A DNA stretch of 33,208 nucleotides from a virus (lineage: Duplodnaviria > Heunggongvirae > Uroviricota > Caudoviricetes): the IMG/VR virus record IMGVR_UViG_2579778919_000008; one strand, written 5' to 3'. This document shows, piece after piece, positions 4,628 to 26,010 of the stretch (position 1 is the first letter of the stretch; every line of letters begins with the position of its first letter). Under the pieces are notes generated by a model, which saw nothing but the letters and a program-made list of their open reading frames with translations, made no database searches and was not told the origin of the DNA. The position numbers were made by a program, and so were the translations under genes.

Positions 4628-4645
4628 GGTGAAGGGGTTCAGTGG
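4628..4645 (-). promoter_or_regulatory. Copy of conserved 18-bp motif (plus strand GGTGAAGGGGTTCAGTGG), candidate late-promoter activator site upstream of the gp46-like gene
   Basis: Identical 18-mer also at 24630..24647 upstream of lys and 16/18 match at 16473..16490 upstream of I; on the transcribed strand it is followed directly by GATAAT. Confidence 0.45.
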
Positions 4646-6488: not shown

Positions 6489-7803
6489 TCAGAACGTCAC
6501 CGGCTTTGATATTGTTAGGATTACGTAGTGTCGGATTGAGACGCAGCAACTCGGCGGCGCGCGTGTAGTCCTCATACCACAGGTGGGCCAGCAAATGCAG
6601 GTTAGTGTCGGACAATACCACTCGCGTAGTCAGTGGTGGTCTGCTGGTAATAACCGCTGCGCCCAGCTCCTGAACGGTCAGGGCGATATCCTTGAGACCT
6701 TCAACCACGGGTTGCCAGGTCACGCCACCAGGTGTTTCACCGGCACTCAGGTTTTGCGTATCAGCAGCAAAGGTGTCCCGCGTCTGGTCGATTGCCTCCT
6801 GAATGGCCGTCCTGGTGTCGTTGGTGATCTGCTCAATATCAACGGGAGACAGAATATCGCTGATGCTGCTGTCACTGAGTATGTCGGAAGCATCAAGTGC
6901 CAGCTGGATTGCAACCTGAGTTTTTACCGCCGTTACCAGCTCGGTAATATCCGAGGTTGATGAGCCTGCCGGAATGGCAACAGCAACCGTTTTTTGCCCG
7001 GTCACTATCTGCTGAGGTAATGCGGCCACATCCTGCAGATTGTTACGGCCATTCTTCCAGTCGGCCATCACGATGCCTGCTGTGCCGGAAACGTCTGAGG
7101 ACTGTGAATAGCTTCCTGGATTATTACTGACACTTGATTTGGACTGAAACGACGTCAGACTCAGCGCACTCTGCAGGTCATTCATGAACGATTTTGGGTA
7201 ATTAACAAAATCCGAGGTGGTACTGACAAATCCCGTCAGTTCCCCCTTAAGCACGGTCACCATATTCAGCGTCGTGGTTGCCAGCGATTTCGCTTTTTTC
7301 ATCCACTTTTTCGCTGTACGCAGAGGCGAGAGAATATTGTCGATGGCCGTCTGGGCTTTCTCCAGAGCGGATTGCGCCTGGTTGAAAACGATATCAGCTT
7401 TCGACAGCGGGAAATCGCTGCCAAAGAAAGGCAGATTAAGTCCCCCCTGGATAAAGACCACTTCGACAACGCAGTAATCAACGTTCTCCGCTTCATGCGA
7501 TGCCTGATACTCAATGCACTGCATGCCCGTCATGGAGCCGAAAACGGGATGAATTAATTCTGCGCTACCGCGAGTATCCAGTGCGGCCAGAAACGCCTGC
7601 AGCCGCACATCATAATCATCACCCCAGAAAAGGACTGTCATCCGCAGGTTACGAGGCTTGCGGCCAAGATCATCAACATCACCACCGTCGACATAGGGAT
7701 ACTCATACGTCGCAATGTCGCGACTGGCGCTGTCACGGGTATTAACCACATCAAAGCGGACGCCCCTGAATGAGGCATCCTGTAATGAATCTTCCCAGCT
7801 CAC
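6472..7803 (-). CDS. DNA circularisation protein N-like (Mu gp43-like)
   Basis: 443 aa immediately downstream of the tape measure gene with ATGA overlap; N-terminus MSWEDSLQDASFRGVRFDV consistent with Mu N family by recollection. Confidence 0.7.
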   Translation of the reverse strand: MSWEDSLQDASFRGVRFDVVNTRDSASRDIATYEYPYVDGGDVDDLGRKPRNLRMTVLFWGDDYDVRLQAFLAALDTRGSAELIHPVFGSMTGMQCIEYQASHEAENVDYCVVEVVFIQGGLNLPFFGSDFPLSKADIVFNQAQSALEKAQTAIDNILSPLRTAKKWMKKAKSLATTTLNMVTVLKGELTGFVSTTSDFVNYPKSFMNDLQSALSLTSFQSKSSVSNNPGSYSQSSDVSGTAGIVMADWKNGRNNLQDVAALPQQIVTGQKTVAVAIPAGSSTSDITELVTAVKTQVAIQLALDASDILSDSSISDILSPVDIEQITNDTRTAIQEAIDQTRDTFAADTQNLSAGETPGGVTWQPVVEGLKDIALTVQELGAAVITSRPPLTTRVVLSDTNLHLLAHLWYEDYTRAAELLRLNPTLRNPNNIKAGDVLNAYSR

Positions 7804-22820: not shown

Positions 22821-23071
22821 TTGTCCTGTTTCCTGTCCAGTTTGTTATCAATGCGCTCGATAGCCGCTCGCAGCTCCCTCATCGCATCCATCATTGCGGT
22901 GTAGTTACTTTTCGCATCCTCACGGCGCTGGTATTCATCCCGGATGCGATCAACCGCCTTTTCCAGGTCGGTAATGTCTTTTTGCAGACGGCGTATCCAG
23001 ATGGTGCCGAAGGTTGCAGCCAGCGCCAGCGCAATCTGAAAGGCCATATCAAGAGTCATGATGTTGTTCAC
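22817..23071 (-). CDS. Hypothetical membrane-anchored coiled-coil protein
   Basis: 84 aa; N-terminal hydrophobic helix then charged helical region; ATGA overlap with spanin gene. Confidence 0.4.
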   Translation of the reverse strand: MNNIMTLDMAFQIALALAATFGTIWIRRLQKDITDLEKAVDRIRDEYQRREDAKSNYTAMMDAMRELRAAIERIDNKLDRKQDK

Positions 23072-23700
23072 TTCCTGTAATACTCATTTATTGCCTGCAG
23101 CCTGCCCTCAATGAGCTGGCACCATGCGCCGTATTCCGCTGAAAACGACACTATTCCAGTGGGGGAGAGTCCGCCACCGGTGCCTGTGGTCTGGCCGGTA
23201 TGACCAGGAGCGCCGCTGGCGGTGGCTGGCAGATGCTGACCAGCGGGGAGGCTTTCGGATCCTGAGTAGCCAAAGGCTTCACGGAAGAGCTGCAGGCCGC
23301 CAGGGCCAATGCCGGTATAACCAGGACCATCTTTATCAAGTGCATCTTTAAGCCTCTTTTTAAGATCGCGAACAGTCTCGTCATGTGCCTTTTGCTTTTC
23401 AGCCAGCTCGCGGGTCAGCGCATCCGCTTTCTGCTGCCAGGCGTTCTGCTTATCAAGTGCAGCCTTCAGGTTAGCTGCATACTGATTTGCAGCGCCGAGC
23501 CTCTCCTGATCCCACTGCCGTTCTTTTTCACTGAAACCATCAGTCAGGCTTTGCTTCTCATTGCTGAAGGCCAGCGCCTGAGCGTCCAGCTTGTTGCCTG
23601 TGATGAAGGTGCCGAACCATATTCCGCAGCCTGTCAGTACCACGACGACGAGCAGCGGTTTCCAGCTAACCTTCAGGATTTTCAGGGCTGCTTCCCACAT
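23068..23700 (-). CDS. i-spanin (Rz-like inner-membrane spanin subunit)
   Basis: Start at internal Met; N-terminal TM helix (LLVVVVLTGCGIWFGTFITG) followed by coiled-coil region; contains an embedded lipoprotein ORF in another frame. Confidence 0.55.
   Translation of the reverse strand: MWEAALKILKVSWKPLLVVVVLTGCGIWFGTFITGNKLDAQALAFSNEKQSLTDGFSEKERQWDQERLGAANQYAANLKAALDKQNAWQQKADALTRELAEKQKAHDETVRDLKKRLKDALDKDGPGYTGIGPGGLQLFREAFGYSGSESLPAGQHLPATASGAPGHTGQTTGTGGGLSPTGIVSFSAEYGAWCQLIEGRLQAINEYYRK
23151..23345 (-). CDS. o-spanin (Rz1-like outer-membrane lipoprotein), embedded in the i-spanin gene
   Basis: Signal peptide with lipobox ALALAAC followed by short proline-rich mature part; fully nested in a different frame of the i-spanin ORF. 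Confidence 0.5.
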   Translation of the reverse strand: MHLIKMVLVIPALALAACSSSVKPLATQDPKASPLVSICQPPPAALLVIPARPQAPVADSPPLE

Positions 23701-23929
23701 CGCGCACCTCTCTGGCTCGTTTGATGGACATGTGTTTTGATGCCTGGCTCTGTGCCACCCATGCGCCCAGATAAGTGAAATACAGCTCACCCGGTGTTTC
23801 GGGACGGGTTACGGTGATCCAGACCAGCACGAAGGAACTGACCAGGAAGGCCAGAAAAACGATGGTATCTGACGTTGAGAGACGACCTGTGGCCGGGTTC
23901 GTCACCAGATCGCGCAGAGAGATCGTCAT
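23666..23929 (-). CDS. Holin-like small membrane protein
   Basis: 87 aa with one hydrophobic helix; start overlaps the endolysin stop (ATGA); position in lysis cassette. Confidence 0.4.
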   Translation of the reverse strand: MTISLRDLVTNPATGRLSTSDTIVFLAFLVSSFVLVWITVTRPETPGELYFTYLGAWVAQSQASKHMSIKRAREVRDVGSSPENPEG

Positions 23930-24570
23930 AGCGCCGCCTTAGCGACATTCAGCCGCGCCACACGGTCGGCCTGACCTTCAGCCGGAGGGTTGATACGGCG
24001 GGTGACAGCCAGAAAATCGCCTTTGTCCGCCAGCTCGTTGCAGCCATTTGCCTTCCAGTACCAGGCAGCGCTGCGGGCTGCGTTGAGATATTCCAGTAAC
24101 AAATCGGGATTAGCGATGAGATCGAGGCCCAGCGCCTTACCGCAAAGGAGGTAATTATTGCGCAGAGTAATCTGAATCAGGCCACGCCCGCGAAAGCGCC
24201 AGCCATCGCCTGACGCTTCATTACCGTTACCACCCTGATTTGCGTAAACATAATTCGCCATTTTTTCAGAGTTACGGGTATAGCGGCGGGCAAATTCAAT
24301 CTCACTGGGCTCGATAATACGATTCTTATTGAGATCGAAGTCGCTGCGGAAAATACGCGCCACGCGCTCAGCATCTGAATAATAGAGATTTTCACTGAGC
24401 CGACTGAAACCCGCGCTCTCATGGCCGGTTTGAGCAATAAAGGCGGCAAGCCGGGCGGGCGTATTAATCTGGAATTCAGCGGTGGCTTTACTGAATGGTT
24501 CAAACCAGCGTTGCGCCATCACTGGCGAAAGGCCTGCTGCTCGCTGAAATTGTGGGAGTGTTAAAAGCAT
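23926..24570 (-). CDS. Endolysin, glycoside hydrolase family 19-like
   Basis: 214 aa; motifs FIAQTGHESAGFSRLSENLYYS and GDGWRFRGRGLIQIT match GH19-type phage endolysins by recollection. Confidence 0.8.
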   Translation of the reverse strand: MLLTLPQFQRAAGLSPVMAQRWFEPFSKATAEFQINTPARLAAFIAQTGHESAGFSRLSENLYYSDAERVARIFRSDFDLNKNRIIEPSEIEFARRYTRNSEKMANYVYANQGGNGNEASGDGWRFRGRGLIQITLRNNYLLCGKALGLDLIANPDLLLEYLNAARSAAWYWKANGCNELADKGDFLAVTRRINPPAEGQADRVARLNVAKAAL

Positions 24571-24629
24571 AACGCCATCCGGTTAAAAAGGGATGGCGTC
24601 AGTATTTCATCGAGTTAGGTGAATAATCA

Positions 24630-24647
24630 GGTGAAGGGGTTCAGTGG
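24630..24647 (-). promoter_or_regulatory. Copy of conserved 18-bp motif (plus strand GGTGAAGGGGTTCAGTGG), candidate late promoter upstream of lys
   Basis: Identical to the 4628..4645 copy; on the transcribed strand followed directly by TGATTAT; a 9-bp-stem hairpin lies between it and the lys ATG. Confidence 0.45.
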
Positions 24648-24648
24648 T

Positions 24649-25155
24649 TTATTGAGTAACATCAATTATCTCTACATCGTCACTTTCTTCAATATGCGAG
24701 GGAGGTGGGTTGTTAATTGCAAATTTACATTCCTTACCCTGTTTTATGTATGATTCACCCTGCGCATTCACAGTCTTAACATTATCAGTTTTTAATGAAG
24801 ATAGCCTTGCCATCCAATATGAGTAAGCAGTTGCTGGTAACGTAGCACAAGAGCTAAAAGGTGTAGGGTTTAAAAGAAGATTCTCCCCATACAATTTTTT
24901 CGCATCCTCATCAAGGAGGAGGAAATGACGACTCACTGCAACAACTTCAGGTGTAAGATATCCTAGGTTCTTGTACATATCAAAAACAGCAGTTGCACCC
25001 ATTAAAGTGCTCTGCGTTTCATTAAATATTCTTTTGGTTTCCTCAAGTTGATTTTTATAAGTTTCAACTGCTTTTGTATTGGGTACTGTTTTTGCTACTG
25101 CAGTAGTACTAAATACCACCAAGAAAAATGCCATATATCTCATTGCATTACACAT
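24649..25155 (-). CDS. AT-rich moron encoding a secreted/periplasmic protein of unknown function
   Basis: 168 aa with N-terminal signal peptide (FFLVVFSTTAVA-KT); markedly lower GC than flanking phage genes; start overlaps the mor stop (TAATG). Confidence 0.55.
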   Translation of the reverse strand: MCNAMRYMAFFLVVFSTTAVAKTVPNTKAVETYKNQLEETKRIFNETQSTLMGATAVFDMYKNLGYLTPEVVAVSRHFLLLDEDAKKLYGENLLLNPTPFSSCATLPATAYSYWMARLSSLKTDNVKTVNAQGESYIKQGKECKFAINNPPPSHIEESDDVEIIDVTQ

Positions 25156-25589
25156 TAGAATAATTTTCCTTGACTGTTACAACCTTTGTTTTTCTGCTGT
25201 GCAAGAAGTTCCCACGCAAAGCGATCACTGAATCCATACTTAGGGCAAAGAAAGGTCATGGCCATAAGAGAGGACGAACCCTGCTCACGCACCTCGGCGA
25301 ACTCGGCGAGAAAGCGACGATTACGTAATTCTCGAAGGGCACGATCACAGCGGGGTAAATAGAGGACTTCGCCGCCAAAATTCTTGATGAGTAATTGGGT
25401 TTTCTCATCGCCGATAGTATCGCGCAGGAGGGCTGCGCGGCTGGCCCCCATAGCGCGGAGGCCTTTACCTATCGGGAACGTGGTGCCACCAAAAGCAGAA
25501 AGAAGCTGCTCGGTCGCCGGGAAGCCTATCAGGTCAGCTATTTGTATCACTGCTGACGGCAGCAGCTCTGTTACCTGTTCCAGATTCAT
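25155..25589 (-). CDS. mor: Mor/C-family transcriptional activator
   Basis: Start at internal Met with GGGAG RBS; C-terminal signature GGEVLYLPR...RNRRFLAEF resembles the Mor/C GGxQVYIP motif. Confidence 0.65.
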   Translation of the reverse strand: MNLEQVTELLPSAVIQIADLIGFPATEQLLSAFGGTTFPIGKGLRAMGASRAALLRDTIGDEKTQLLIKNFGGEVLYLPRCDRALRELRNRRFLAEFAEVREQGSSSLMAMTFLCPKYGFSDRFAWELLAQQKNKGCNSQGKLF

Positions 25590-26010
25590 TATTACGCTCC
25601 CGTTTTTTTCGCCGACTCGCATCAATGCTGAGAGCCTGCATGAGTTTGGTTAACTGTTCTGTCGTCAACCACTCTATGTATTTGACGTGGAACATATGAT
25701 CGCACATTTTCTCGGCATAATTCCACGGACGTTTTGCATCTGCAAGTAATGCATGAATTTTAGCAAGAATTGATTCACGTGTTTTAGCAACTTTTGGACG
25801 TCGACCATGTTTTGCTGAGTAGCGAGGAAAACCCTTATCGTGCATATATTCCCTGACAGCCTGAAGCTCGTCGAGGGTGCATTTAGCGGATGATGTTTTA
25901 CCGTTGCATAAGCGAGACAACACGCTGCGGTAGGTAACATCATCCCATCCTAAATATGCCTGACCCGCTTTAATAGCCCCGATAAGGCCTCGTTTTGCTG
26001 GCGTGGACAT
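25534..26010 (-). CDS. GemA-like early regulatory protein (Mu gp16-like)
   Basis: 158 aa from internal Met with AGGAG RBS; segment KRGLIGAIKAGQAYLGWDDVTYRSVL...GKTSSAKCTLDEL resembles the GemA family by recollection; position just upstream of mor. Confidence 0.55.
   Translation of the reverse strand: MSTPAKRGLIGAIKAGQAYLGWDDVTYRSVLSRLCNGKTSSAKCTLDELQAVREYMHDKGFPRYSAKHGRRPKVAKTRESILAKIHALLADAKRPWNYAEKMCDHMFHVKYIEWLTTEQLTKLMQALSIDASRRKKRERNNESGTGNRAAAVSSDTNS

What the first reader, a model, noticed from the sequence alone, without database searches (positions are those of the whole stretch)
24649..25155. AT-rich moron encoding a secreted protein inserted between the activator gene and the lysis cassette
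This ~500-bp gene is conspicuously AT-rich compared with the flanking phage genes and encodes a 168-aa protein with a clear N-terminal signal peptide and no resemblance to virion or lysis proteins. It is translationally coupled to the mor stop and sits in the slot where Mu carries its second activator gene C. Composition and location mark it as horizontally acquired cargo, possibly a lysogenic-conversion, superinfection-exclusion or periplasmic defence factor.
Basis: partly seen in the sequence, partly recalled or inferred. Interest (0 to 1): 0.6.

Follow-up and report, generated by a model that had tools for sequence, protein, structure and literature searches.

The report
Exported cargo gene in Mu-like prophage
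This AT-rich gene is a real, swappable accessory gene of a Mu-like prophage; it encodes a secreted helical protein of unknown function, one of at least six unrelated envelope proteins that related phages carry at this exact position.

Summary
On the minus strand, 24649-25155 encodes a 168-aa protein. Its GC is 36.7% (GC3 27%) against a window mean of 53.1%, the lowest stretch of that length in the window. It lies between a Mor-family activator gene and a GH19 endolysin gene.

The protein has a Sec-type signal peptide, a confidently modelled four-helix bundle with two invariant cysteines, and a disordered acidic tail ending in IIDVTQ. It matches only phrog_29261, a family of unknown function.

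Across 78 related Mu-like loci this slot is a hotspot. It holds at least six unrelated low-GC cassettes (GC 0.32-0.43), all exported or membrane proteins, exchanged almost ORF-for-ORF between conserved flanks. Two unrelated cores share the same C-terminal tail, which is conserved at the protein level.

Two bases after the stop codon lies a Mor/C-type late promoter, followed by a covarying hairpin. The gene is therefore most likely the last gene of the early gemA-mor operon, not an autonomous moron.

It is not a core lysis gene. It is replaced in 41 of 78 loci and is independent of endolysin type.

My best guess for function is a periplasmic superinfection-exclusion or envelope-competition factor that acts through the tail. 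This is unproven. The interest is moderate.

The parts
24649..25155 (-). Gene X: 168-aa exported accessory protein (phrog_29261). Stop codon TAA at 24649-24651. An alternative start (M5) lies at 25141-25143.
   Evidence: ORF list. PHROG hit E 2e-41. Homologues at 34-99% identity are always found after mor. dN/dS 0.18-0.40. GC 36.7%.
25093..25155 (-). Signal peptide coding region (residues 1-21, MCNAMRYMAFFLVVFSTTAVA). Predicted SPase I cleavage is after AVA. There is no lipobox.
   Evidence: Sequence. The N-terminal hydrophobic 10-mer has a Kyte-Doolittle mean of 2.3-3.4, preceded by K/R, in all 30 distinct family members. AF2 models a low-confidence N-terminal helix separate from the bundle. 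No dedicated signal-peptide predictor was available.
24712..25092 (-). Mature core (residues 22-148): a four-helix bundle with the invariant cysteines Cys103 and Cys143.
24652..24711 (-). Disordered C-terminal linker and tail (residues 149-168, NPPPSHIEESDDVEIIDVTQ; 6 acidic and 0 basic residues). The conserved IIDV motif lies at 24658-24669.
   Evidence: pLDDT is 40-56 over the last 20 residues. The tail is present in 36/37 type-A loci and 11/11 type-B-long loci. It is the only region aligned between the two families by hhalign, E 1.4e-4. The IIDV codons vary at synonymous positions.
25155..25625 (-). The mor gene (Mor/C-family late activator). The probable ATG start gives 25158-25589. Its stop codon TAA (25155-25157) overlaps the first ATG of X.
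   Evidence: Pfam PF08765 E 1.4e-8 and phrog_836 E 1.4e-39. Junction sequence. It is the only Mor-like gene found in the window by tblastn.
24601..24646 (-). Predicted Mor-dependent late promoter for the lysis operon (Plys analogue). The dyad TGAA-CCCC-TTCA is at 24632-24643. The -10-like hexamer AATACT is at 24601-24606. The predicted transcription start is near 24594, which places the dyad centre at -43.5.
   Evidence: The motif CACTGAACCCCTTCA occurs three times on the minus strand: before lys, before the head protease gene and before the baseplate gene. Each copy is followed at exactly 25 nt by a -10-like hexamer. The element is conserved in 46 distinct loci regardless of cassette type. 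The geometry matches the published Mor and C sites, 16-bp dyads centred at -43.5 (PMC4390567, PMC2582627).
24571..24601 (-). Conserved RNA hairpin (UGACGCCAUCC-loop-GGAUGGCGUU) ending just before the lys ATG at 24568-24570. It covers the only Shine-Dalgarno-like sequence (GGAUGG). In some relatives it is followed by a T-run.
   Evidence: MFE -18.1 kcal/mol, z -5.9 against shuffles. Five of 9 pairs show compensatory changes across 18 loci. L067, L087 and L086 have terminator-like T-runs after it.
23926..24570 (-). GH19 endolysin gene, the first gene of the late lysis operon. It is context, not part of the cassette.
   Evidence: Pfam PF00182 E 8e-13 and phrog_181 E 1e-81.

Best explanation
Gene X is an accessory cargo gene in a hypervariable slot of enterobacterial Mu-like prophages. 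The slot lies between the late activator gene mor and the Mor-dependent promoter of the lysis operon.

Expression (inferred). X has no transcription signals of its own. It is read as the last gene of the early gemA-mor transcript when the phage enters lytic growth. The hairpin downstream then stops early transcripts, or silences their translation, before they reach the endolysin gene.

The protein (inferred from sequence and model). It is exported by the Sec pathway and its signal peptide is cut after Ala21. In the periplasm it folds into a four-helix bundle, probably stapled by a Cys103-Cys143 disulfide. It carries a flexible acidic tail ending in IIDV.

Function (my commitment, untested). 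The tail docks as an added beta-strand onto a conserved envelope protein, and the variable bundle interferes with an envelope step. The most likely effect is to block entry of competing or re-adsorbing phages, i.e. superinfection exclusion of the kind made early by T4 (Sp, Imm) and T5 (Llp).

Shown here: the gene, its composition, its family, its synteny, the hotspot, the shared tail, and the promoter/hairpin architecture.
Inferred: export, the disulfide, and co-transcription with mor.
Guessed: the target and the exclusion phenotype.
For: Composition and reality of the gene.

Export signals. There are exactly two conserved cysteines in the mature part of the A, B and D cassettes.

Fold: the AF2 model has pLDDT 82 and shows a four-helix bundle plus a disordered tail.

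Fixed synteny gemA-mor-X-endolysin: seen in Klebsiella, Citrobacter, Cedecea, Raoultella and Yersinia, and in metagenomic contigs.

Hotspot: of 78 loci with Mor at least 60% identical, 37 are type A, 11 B-long, 7 B-short, 11 D, 5 E, 6 F and 1 other. All have GC 0.32-0.43 against flanks of 0.51, and all have a signal peptide or transmembrane segments.

Swapping on one backbone: the window and E. coli FDAARGOS_1303 share lys at 98% and the DUF2644 gene at 99% protein identity, but carry unrelated slot genes. Every endolysin sublineage carries several cassette types.

Faster evolution than its neighbours: omega is 0.18-0.40, against 0.03-0.05 for mor and 0.07-0.09 for lys.

Shared tail on unrelated cores, under protein-level constraint.

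No room for private promoter or terminator. A late promoter and hairpin lie directly downstream. In distant relatives a canonical terminator follows X.

Precedent: envelope exclusion proteins made early in infection, one of which needs a disulfide (bioRxiv 10.64898/2026.03.26.714494).
Against: - No homology, by sequence or by fold, to any known exclusion, defence or immunity protein.
- The four-helix bundle is a generic fold and says nothing about function.
- Expression timing is inferred from architecture only. An internal promoter inside mor cannot be excluded. By eye there is a weak TTGTAA-17-TCTAAT at the mor/X junction; it lacks the conserved A at -11 and is not conserved in other loci.
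- The family is always adjacent to the endolysin gene, which could point to a lysis-related role instead.
- Cassettes D, E, F and B-short lack the IIDV tail, so a single shared partner cannot explain the whole slot.
- The signal peptide was judged by rule of thumb, not by a trained predictor.
Confidence: 0.45

Rival explanations
1. Lysogenic-conversion moron. X is transcribed from its own promoter in the repressed prophage and changes the envelope of the lysogen, for example by exclusion, serum or stress resistance, or colonisation.
For: - Low GC, an exported product and presence/absence among related phages are the classic moron signature.
- The prophage occurs in clinical Enterobacteriaceae and on plasmids.
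- A weak promoter-like TTGTAA-17-TCTAAT can be read at the mor/X junction (sequence).
Against: - The variable segment is essentially the ORF alone. It starts -3..+29 nt after the mor stop and ends 0-17 nt before the conserved late promoter. In some loci the stop codon lies inside the activator site.
- The sigma-70 scan found no site upstream of X.
- The only hairpin downstream belongs to the conserved backbone, not to the cassette.
- AT-rich genes in enterobacteria are typically silenced by H-NS (general knowledge).
Confidence: 0.2
2. Lysis regulator. X is a periplasmic factor that sets lysis timing or prevents premature lysis, as an antiholin-like protein or as an inhibitor of the spanin or endolysin. 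It is made before the late lysis genes.
For: - The family always lies immediately upstream of the endolysin gene, across very divergent Mu-like phages.
- It is periplasmic, like T4 RI (general knowledge).
- It is expressed before the late operon (inferred from architecture).
Against: - It is replaced by unrelated cassettes in 41/78 loci whose lysis cassettes are identical or near-identical.
- It is truncated in L059 and absent from Mu and the Neisseria Mu-like phages.
- It precedes four unrelated endolysin types: GH19, GH108, Amidase_2 and a 177-aa lambda-R-like enzyme. A specific enzyme inhibitor is therefore unlikely.
- It is separated from the lysis genes by a promoter and a hairpin.
- The lysis cassette already looks complete without it: endolysin, DUF2644 membrane protein, i-/o-spanin, and a small N-terminally anchored membrane protein that I read as releasin-like (that last reading is mine from the sequence; phrog_462 labels it 'lipoprotein').
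Confidence: 0.12
3. TonB-box-like decoy, a specific version of the exclusion model. The tail (E-I-I-D-V-T) mimics the beta-strand TonB box of TonB-dependent receptors and colicins. It occupies the TonB C-terminal domain and so blocks TonB-dependent phages and colicins.
For: - The tail is disordered, acidic, and sits after a PPP linker.
- It is conserved at the protein level on unrelated cores.
- From memory only: it resembles TonB boxes such as DTITVTA (FhuA) and EIMAV (colicin Ia).
Against: - The conservation pattern differs. In X the invariant residues are I-I-D-V and the preceding residue varies (E, Q, A, G, T, I, V). TonB boxes conserve the first acidic residue and the following Thr (general knowledge).
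- The motif is short and beta-strand-like, so chance resemblance is likely.
Confidence: 0.06

Closest known systems
Phage morons (HK97/lambda type, e.g. bor, lom, cor)
   Same: Accessory status, lower GC than the backbone, presence or absence among close relatives, and products that are often envelope proteins.
   Different: Classic morons are autonomous units with their own promoter and terminator, expressed from the prophage. Here the exchanged unit is a bare ORF embedded at the end of the early operon, with backbone signals on both sides.
Early-expressed envelope superinfection-exclusion proteins: T5 Llp, Cor, T4 Sp (spackle) and Imm
   Same: Small exported or membrane proteins made early in lytic development that act in the envelope. 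Llp needs a disulfide (bioRxiv 10.64898/2026.03.26.714494). X is exported, has two invariant cysteines, and is predicted to be made with the early genes.
   Different: No sequence or fold similarity. X is a soluble four-helix bundle with a C-terminal peptide, not a lipoprotein. No exclusion phenotype is known.
Phage Mu middle-operon interval (Pm-gp18-gp19-gp20-C) between mor and Plys
   Same: The same genomic interval. In Mu it also holds small membrane proteins of unknown function (gp19 with 4 TM segments, gp20 with 1 TM segment) and ends with a terminator next to Plys.
   Different: The window phage has no second activator and no middle promoter. Its single Mor-family protein appears to serve three late promoters directly. 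X is unrelated to gp18-20.
Hypervariable accessory hotspots in temperate phages (P2 old/tin and Z/fun loci; anti-CRISPR loci of Pseudomonas Mu-like phages)
   Same: A fixed position between conserved genes where unrelated, AT-rich cargo is exchanged among close relatives (general knowledge; hotspots are reviewed in bioRxiv 10.1101/2024.10.15.618418).
   Different: The cargo here is uniformly a single exported or membrane protein rather than cytoplasmic defence or anti-defence systems. None matches PADLOC. Two unrelated cargo families share one C-terminal peptide.
Periplasmic four-helix-bundle sensor domains (4HB_MCP type) of chemoreceptors and histidine kinases
   Different: Identity is 5-7%, no profile hit was found, there is no transmembrane or signalling module, and the fold is generic. 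I treat this as a resemblance in shape only.

Membership tests
phrog_29261 (phage protein family, function unknown) | Significant full-length match to the family profile | tested here: met
   E 2.2e-41, residues 5-168 against profile positions 1-159 of 161.
Moron (autonomous accessory transcription unit) | Present in some but not all closely related phages | tested here: met
   37 of 78 related loci carry this family and the rest carry unrelated genes. E. coli FDAARGOS_1303 has 96%-identical flanks but a different gene in the slot.
Moron (autonomous accessory transcription unit) | Nucleotide composition different from the phage backbone | tested here: met
   36.7% against 53.1% GC, the lowest in the window. 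The same holds in all related loci.
Moron (autonomous accessory transcription unit) | Own promoter upstream and own terminator downstream | tested here: not met
   No sigma-70-like site was found upstream. The gap to mor is -3..+29 nt, and the gap to the conserved late promoter is 0-17 nt. The downstream hairpin is part of the backbone. This test is by sequence only; transcription was not measured.
Core Mu-like lysis gene (holin, antiholin, spanin, releasin) | Conserved in all phages that share the lysis cassette | tested here: not met
   Replaced in 41/78 loci, truncated in L059, and absent from Mu.
Core Mu-like lysis gene (holin, antiholin, spanin, releasin) | Sequence membership in a known lysis family | tested here: not met
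   No Pfam or PHROG lysis family was hit. In the same searches the neighbouring genes hit endolysin and Rz-like spanin families; DUF2644 hit only a 'membrane protein' PHROG in the moron/host-takeover category.
Mor/C family activator (the gene Mu carries in this interval) | Mor domain (PF08765) with helix-turn-helix | tested here: not met
   No Pfam hit at E <= 0.1. No tblastn similarity to Mu C or Mor. The protein carries a signal peptide.
Known anti-phage defence or superinfection-exclusion proteins | Homology to a described defence or exclusion protein | tested here: not met
   PADLOC gave 0 families at E <= 1. The NCBIfam hits are far below threshold. BFVD and PDB gave no specific structural match.
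Known anti-phage defence or superinfection-exclusion proteins | Envelope location | tested here: inconclusive
   A Sec-type signal peptide was judged by rule and two invariant cysteines are present. No trained predictor or experiment was available.
Known anti-phage defence or superinfection-exclusion proteins | Blocks infection by other phages | not testable with these tools
   Needs plating and adsorption assays.
4HB_MCP-type periplasmic sensor domain | Profile match and linkage to transmembrane and signalling modules | tested here: not met
TonB box | Conserved acidic residue and Thr, then hydrophobic-x-Val, in an extended segment that binds TonB | tested here: inconclusive
   The tail reads x-I-I-D-V, with the first position variable. 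The TonB-box consensus was recalled from memory, and binding is not testable here.

The most novel reading that the evidence does not exclude
The mor-lys slot of enterobacterial Mu-like phages encodes a modular set of periplasmic effectors. Unrelated folded heads (the four-helix bundle of type A and the Sel1-like type B) are fused to one conserved C-terminal docking peptide (acidic linker plus IIDV). The peptide would deliver them to a single conserved envelope partner, and the heads would diversify under phage-phage or phage-host conflict. This would be a previously undescribed architecture for an early-expressed, envelope-level exclusion or host-manipulation system.
Probability: 0.2. Interest if true: 0.7.

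Novelty: new variant of a known kind. Interest (0 to 1): 0.4.

Why it matters
Temperate-phage hotspots have been productive places to find defence and counter-defence genes. This one appears not to have been described (two full-text literature searches found nothing on it). It is easy to locate, because it is flanked by mor and a recognisable late promoter. Its cargo is uniformly envelope-targeted.

If the shared tail is a docking peptide, it identifies a common periplasmic target that transposable phages manipulate early in lytic growth. It would also give a handle (tail deletion, tail pull-down) for assigning function to several protein families that are currently annotated only as hypothetical.

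For annotation, the practical lesson is that this AT-rich gene is neither a lysis gene nor a second activator. It should not be assumed to be expressed in the lysogen.

Tried and rejected
Searches that found nothing useful:
- Megablast of the 1.8-kb region against the phage collection found nothing. Only a protein search found the Klebsiella relative.
- Pfam, NCBIfam and PADLOC gave no usable hit.
- A PDB profile search gave only noise.
- The afdb50 library was unavailable.
- Rfam found no RNA family around the gene.
- There are no flanking direct repeats or insertion scars.
- Two literature searches for a described mor-lys hotspot, or for a function for this family, found nothing specific.

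Ideas considered and rejected:
- Chance ORF. Rejected by purifying selection and a conserved family.
- Inhibitor specific for the GH19 endolysin. Rejected because the same family precedes GH108, Amidase_2 and lambda-R-like endolysins, and because identical endolysins sit behind different cassettes.
- The tail is conserved only because it overlaps promoter DNA or a recombination arm. Rejected because the IIDV codons differ at synonymous sites. The tail DNA is also less similar than the flank between the window and the E. coli relative: 17 of 21 nt match, against about 96-100% in the flank.
- Type A and type B are divergent homologues. Rejected because hhalign aligns only the 12-residue tail.
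- Lipoprotein. Rejected because there is no lipobox cysteine at the cleavage site.

Full report
**What is there**

The window is an almost complete Mu-like prophage whose genes all lie on the minus strand. It includes a transposase, B ATPase, gemA, mor, a lysis cassette, and head and tail genes.

The finding's coordinates, 24649-25155, match a minus-strand ORF of 168 aa exactly. Its GC is 36.7% against a window mean of 53.1% (sd 4.3% for windows of the same length). It is the lowest-GC stretch in the window, and third codon positions are 27% GC.

Upstream is a Mor-family activator gene (25155-25625; PF08765, phrog_836). Its stop codon overlaps the first ATG of the ORF as TAATG. Downstream, after 78 nt, is a GH19 endolysin gene. 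It is followed by a DUF2644 membrane protein gene and an i-spanin gene with an embedded lipoprotein o-spanin. The one caveat is the start codon: homologues and the PHROG profile begin at the second Met (M5), so the start, and hence the coupling to mor, is uncertain.

**The protein**

The N-terminus (MCNAMRYMAFFLVVFSTTAVA|KTV) has a basic residue, a 15-residue hydrophobic core and an A-x-A cleavage motif. It has no lipobox. All 30 distinct family members collected show the same layout.

The AlphaFold2 model, built on 8 homologues, has mean pLDDT 81.7. It shows a four-helix bundle at high confidence, followed by about 20 disordered residues, NPPPSHIEESDDVEIIDVTQ. Two cysteines (Cys103 and Cys143 in full-length numbering) are invariant, which fits a periplasmic disulfide.

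Nothing identifies a function:
- There is no Pfam, NCBIfam or PADLOC family. The only hit is phrog_29261, function unknown.
- The viral structure library and the PDB sequence profiles give nothing specific.

The family is small. There are 8 clusters among 5.8 billion proteins and 27 representatives among 1.84 billion.

The gene is under purifying selection but evolves several times faster than its neighbours. Among 96%-identical relatives, omega is 0.18-0.40, against 0.03-0.05 for mor and 0.07-0.09 for lys.

**Where the family occurs**

Nearly every homologue whose context could be read lies directly after a Mor gene and before the endolysin gene of a Mu-like prophage:
- Klebsiella phage ST405-OXA48phi1.1 (42% identity).
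- Enterobacteriaceae and Cedecea chromosomes.
- Metagenomic contigs at about 35% identity.
- Prophages sitting in Citrobacter, Raoultella, Klebsiella and Yersinia plasmids.
- A longer subfamily with an extra cysteine-containing C-terminal extension.

The exceptions are one long-subfamily member (P0022) and possibly P0032, which sit in what looks like ordinary chromosomal context.

The endolysin that follows differs between these phages. It can be GH19, GH108 (Yersinia), Amidase_2, or a 177-aa enzyme that I read from its sequence as lambda-R-like. The protein is therefore not tied to one lytic enzyme.

In hosts of about 60% GC the gene is 49-59% GC. That is still below its flanks, but much higher than in the enterics. 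The family is thus an old resident of this position, not a recent import.

**The slot is a hotspot**

Using a Mor alignment I collected 7 genomic and 79 viral loci. Among the 78 loci whose Mor is at least 60% identical to the window's, the gene after mor falls into these types:

| Type | Loci | Description |
|---|---|---|
| A (this family) | 37 | four-helix bundle, IIDV tail |
| B-long | 11 | Sel1-like, motif DGYQxQRNLAF...CAWRKILL; phrog_5882; IIDV tail |
| B-short | 7 | 117 aa, no tail |
| D | 11 | about 175 aa, AVDGYKGVKFG...; phrog_36303 |
| E | 5 | 165-aa membrane protein |
| F | 6 | 92-96-aa membrane protein |
| other | 1 | zinc-ribbon membrane protein |

All of these genes have GC 0.32-0.43, against 0.51 for the flanks. 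All have a signal peptide or transmembrane segments, and none has a known function.

Cassette type does not follow the backbone. The window and E. coli FDAARGOS_1303 share lys at 98% and the DUF2644 gene at 99% protein identity, yet they carry type A and type B respectively. Each endolysin sublineage carries most of the cassette types. One locus (L059) has a truncated type-A gene.

Mu itself holds Pm, gp18, two small membrane proteins (gp19, gp20) and C in this interval. The Neisseria Mu-like phages hold nothing there. This refutes the idea of a core lysis gene and supports the idea of accessory cargo.

**How it is probably expressed**

The exchanged segment is almost exactly the ORF. It begins -3 to +29 nt after the mor stop and ends 0-17 nt before a sequence that is conserved in all loci whatever the cassette:

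CCACTGAACCCCTTCA - 25 nt - (A/G/T)ATACT - hairpin - ATG of the endolysin

In the window the 15-mer CACTGAACCCCTTCA occurs three times, all on the minus strand: before lys, before the head maturation protease gene, and before a baseplate gene. Each copy is followed at exactly 25 nt by a -10-like hexamer. With a transcription start 7 nt after the hexamer, the TGAA-CCCC-TTCA dyad is centred at -43.5. That is the published position of the Mor and C binding dyads in Mu promoters, which have -10 hexamers but lack -35 hexamers (PMC4390567 and PMC2582627). These three sites are therefore the analogues of Mu Plys, PI and PP.

The hairpin between the -10 hexamer and the lys start codon is strong (-18.1 kcal/mol, z -5.9). 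It keeps its pairing through compensatory changes at 5 of 9 positions, and in some relatives it is followed by a T-run. In two distant relatives a canonical terminator follows the X homologue.

The promoter scan finds no sigma-70-like site upstream of X. I could see only a weak, non-conserved one by eye.

My inference is that X is the last gene of the early gemA-mor transcript, that it is made when the phage goes lytic, and that the hairpin insulates the endolysin gene from early transcription. The predicted late start falls inside the 5' arm of the hairpin, so late transcripts would not form it. None of this was measured.

**The shared tail**

Type-A proteins (36 of 37 loci) and type-B-long proteins (11 of 11 loci) end in an acidic stretch followed by (L/I)-x-I-I-D-(V/I) and one to four more residues. 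Profile-profile comparison of the two families aligns only these 12 residues (E 1.4e-4) and nothing in the cores.

The IIDV codons vary freely at synonymous positions (ATA/ATC/ATT, GAT/GAC, GTT/GTA/GTG/GTC). Between the window and its E. coli relative, the tail DNA is more diverged than the adjacent flank. The constraint therefore acts on the peptide, not on promoter DNA or a recombination arm.

A disordered, acidic, proline-preceded tail that ends in a beta-strand-like motif and sits on unrelated periplasmic domains looks like a docking peptide for a common partner. Its resemblance to TonB boxes is a lead from memory only. The conservation pattern differs, so I rate that specific idea low.

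**Interpretation**

The well-supported part (about 0.85) is this: the gene is a genuine accessory gene for an exported protein, in a previously undescribed hypervariable slot at the end of the early operon of enterobacterial Mu-like prophages.

The less certain part concerns what it does. The evidence is an envelope location, rapid evolution, ORF-for-ORF replacement by other envelope proteins, no dependence on endolysin type, and predicted early expression. On that basis I commit to superinfection exclusion or envelope-level competition acting through the C-terminal peptide. The precedents are T5 Llp, Cor, and T4 Sp and Imm.

Rival explanations:
- A lysogen-expressed conversion factor (0.2).
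- A lysis-timing factor (0.12).
- A TonB-box decoy as a special case of the exclusion model (0.06).

The terms 'moron' and 'lysogenic conversion' are not supported by the architecture. 'Horizontally acquired' is better stated as 'one allele of a frequently exchanged slot'.

**Verdict**

The gene is an ordinary kind of thing, phage hotspot cargo. It has two features worth following up: the strict restriction of the slot to envelope proteins, and a common C-terminal peptide on unrelated cores. Interest is 0.4.

Noticed in passing
window 24632-24646, 16475-16489, 4630-4644 (all minus strand): The 15-mer CACTGAACC(C/T)CTTCA occurs three times. Each copy is followed at exactly 25 nt by a -10-like hexamer (AATACT, TATCGT, TAGTAT). 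The copies lie in front of the endolysin, head-protease and baseplate-wedge genes. They look like the Plys/PI/PP late promoters of this phage, served by a single Mor-family activator and with no separate C gene.
   Followed up: yes
window 24571-24601 (minus strand): A strong conserved hairpin lies immediately before the endolysin start codon and covers the only SD-like sequence. It has z -5.9, and 5 of 9 pairs show compensatory changes among relatives. In some relatives it is followed by a T-run. The predicted late transcription start (about 24594) lies inside its 5' arm, so only read-through early RNA could form it. It may act as an insulator against premature endolysin expression.
   Followed up: partly
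window 8350-9250, inside the tape-measure gene 7800-9968 (minus strand): This is the second low-GC island of the window, 38-45% GC against about 55% around it. It lies within the tail tape-measure ORF (phrog_794) and may be a mosaic or recombinant segment.
   Followed up: partly
L005 4592-5203 (Logan SRR19242968 contig): A related prophage is truncated just after the X homologue. The endolysin start is fused to a PfkB-family host gene, and host sugar-metabolism genes follow. It is a defective remnant that keeps the early region through X.
   Followed up: no
L059 (IMG/VR contig), slot gene and the 173 nt after it: The type-A gene is truncated at 119 aa, and the remainder, including the IIDIDAPH tail, is left out of frame. 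It is a natural pseudogene of this family in an otherwise intact region.
   Followed up: no
L058, L062, L068, L085: In these loci the stop codon of the slot gene (...APH-TGA) lies inside the conserved CACTGAA activator-site motif. The coding sequence therefore runs into the late promoter.
   Followed up: no
window 23151-23384 within 23068-23790 (minus strand): A lipoprotein ORF (LAAC lipobox) is embedded out of frame in the Rz-like i-spanin gene. This is the usual embedded o-spanin arrangement.
   Followed up: no
protein cluster of P0001: The 90% cluster that holds the X homologues also lists 144-aa Mor proteins as members. This is presumably a clustering artefact from the overlapping or adjacent genes, so cluster size (336) overstates the family.
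   Followed up: no
plasmids NZ_CP056853.1 (Citrobacter freundii), NZ_CP048351.1, OW968035.1, Yersinia ruckeri pYR4: Mu-like prophages carrying this gene family sit inside conjugative or mobilizable plasmids. The C. freundii copy is 99.4% identical to the window protein, so the window may come from Citrobacter or a close relative.
   Followed up: partly
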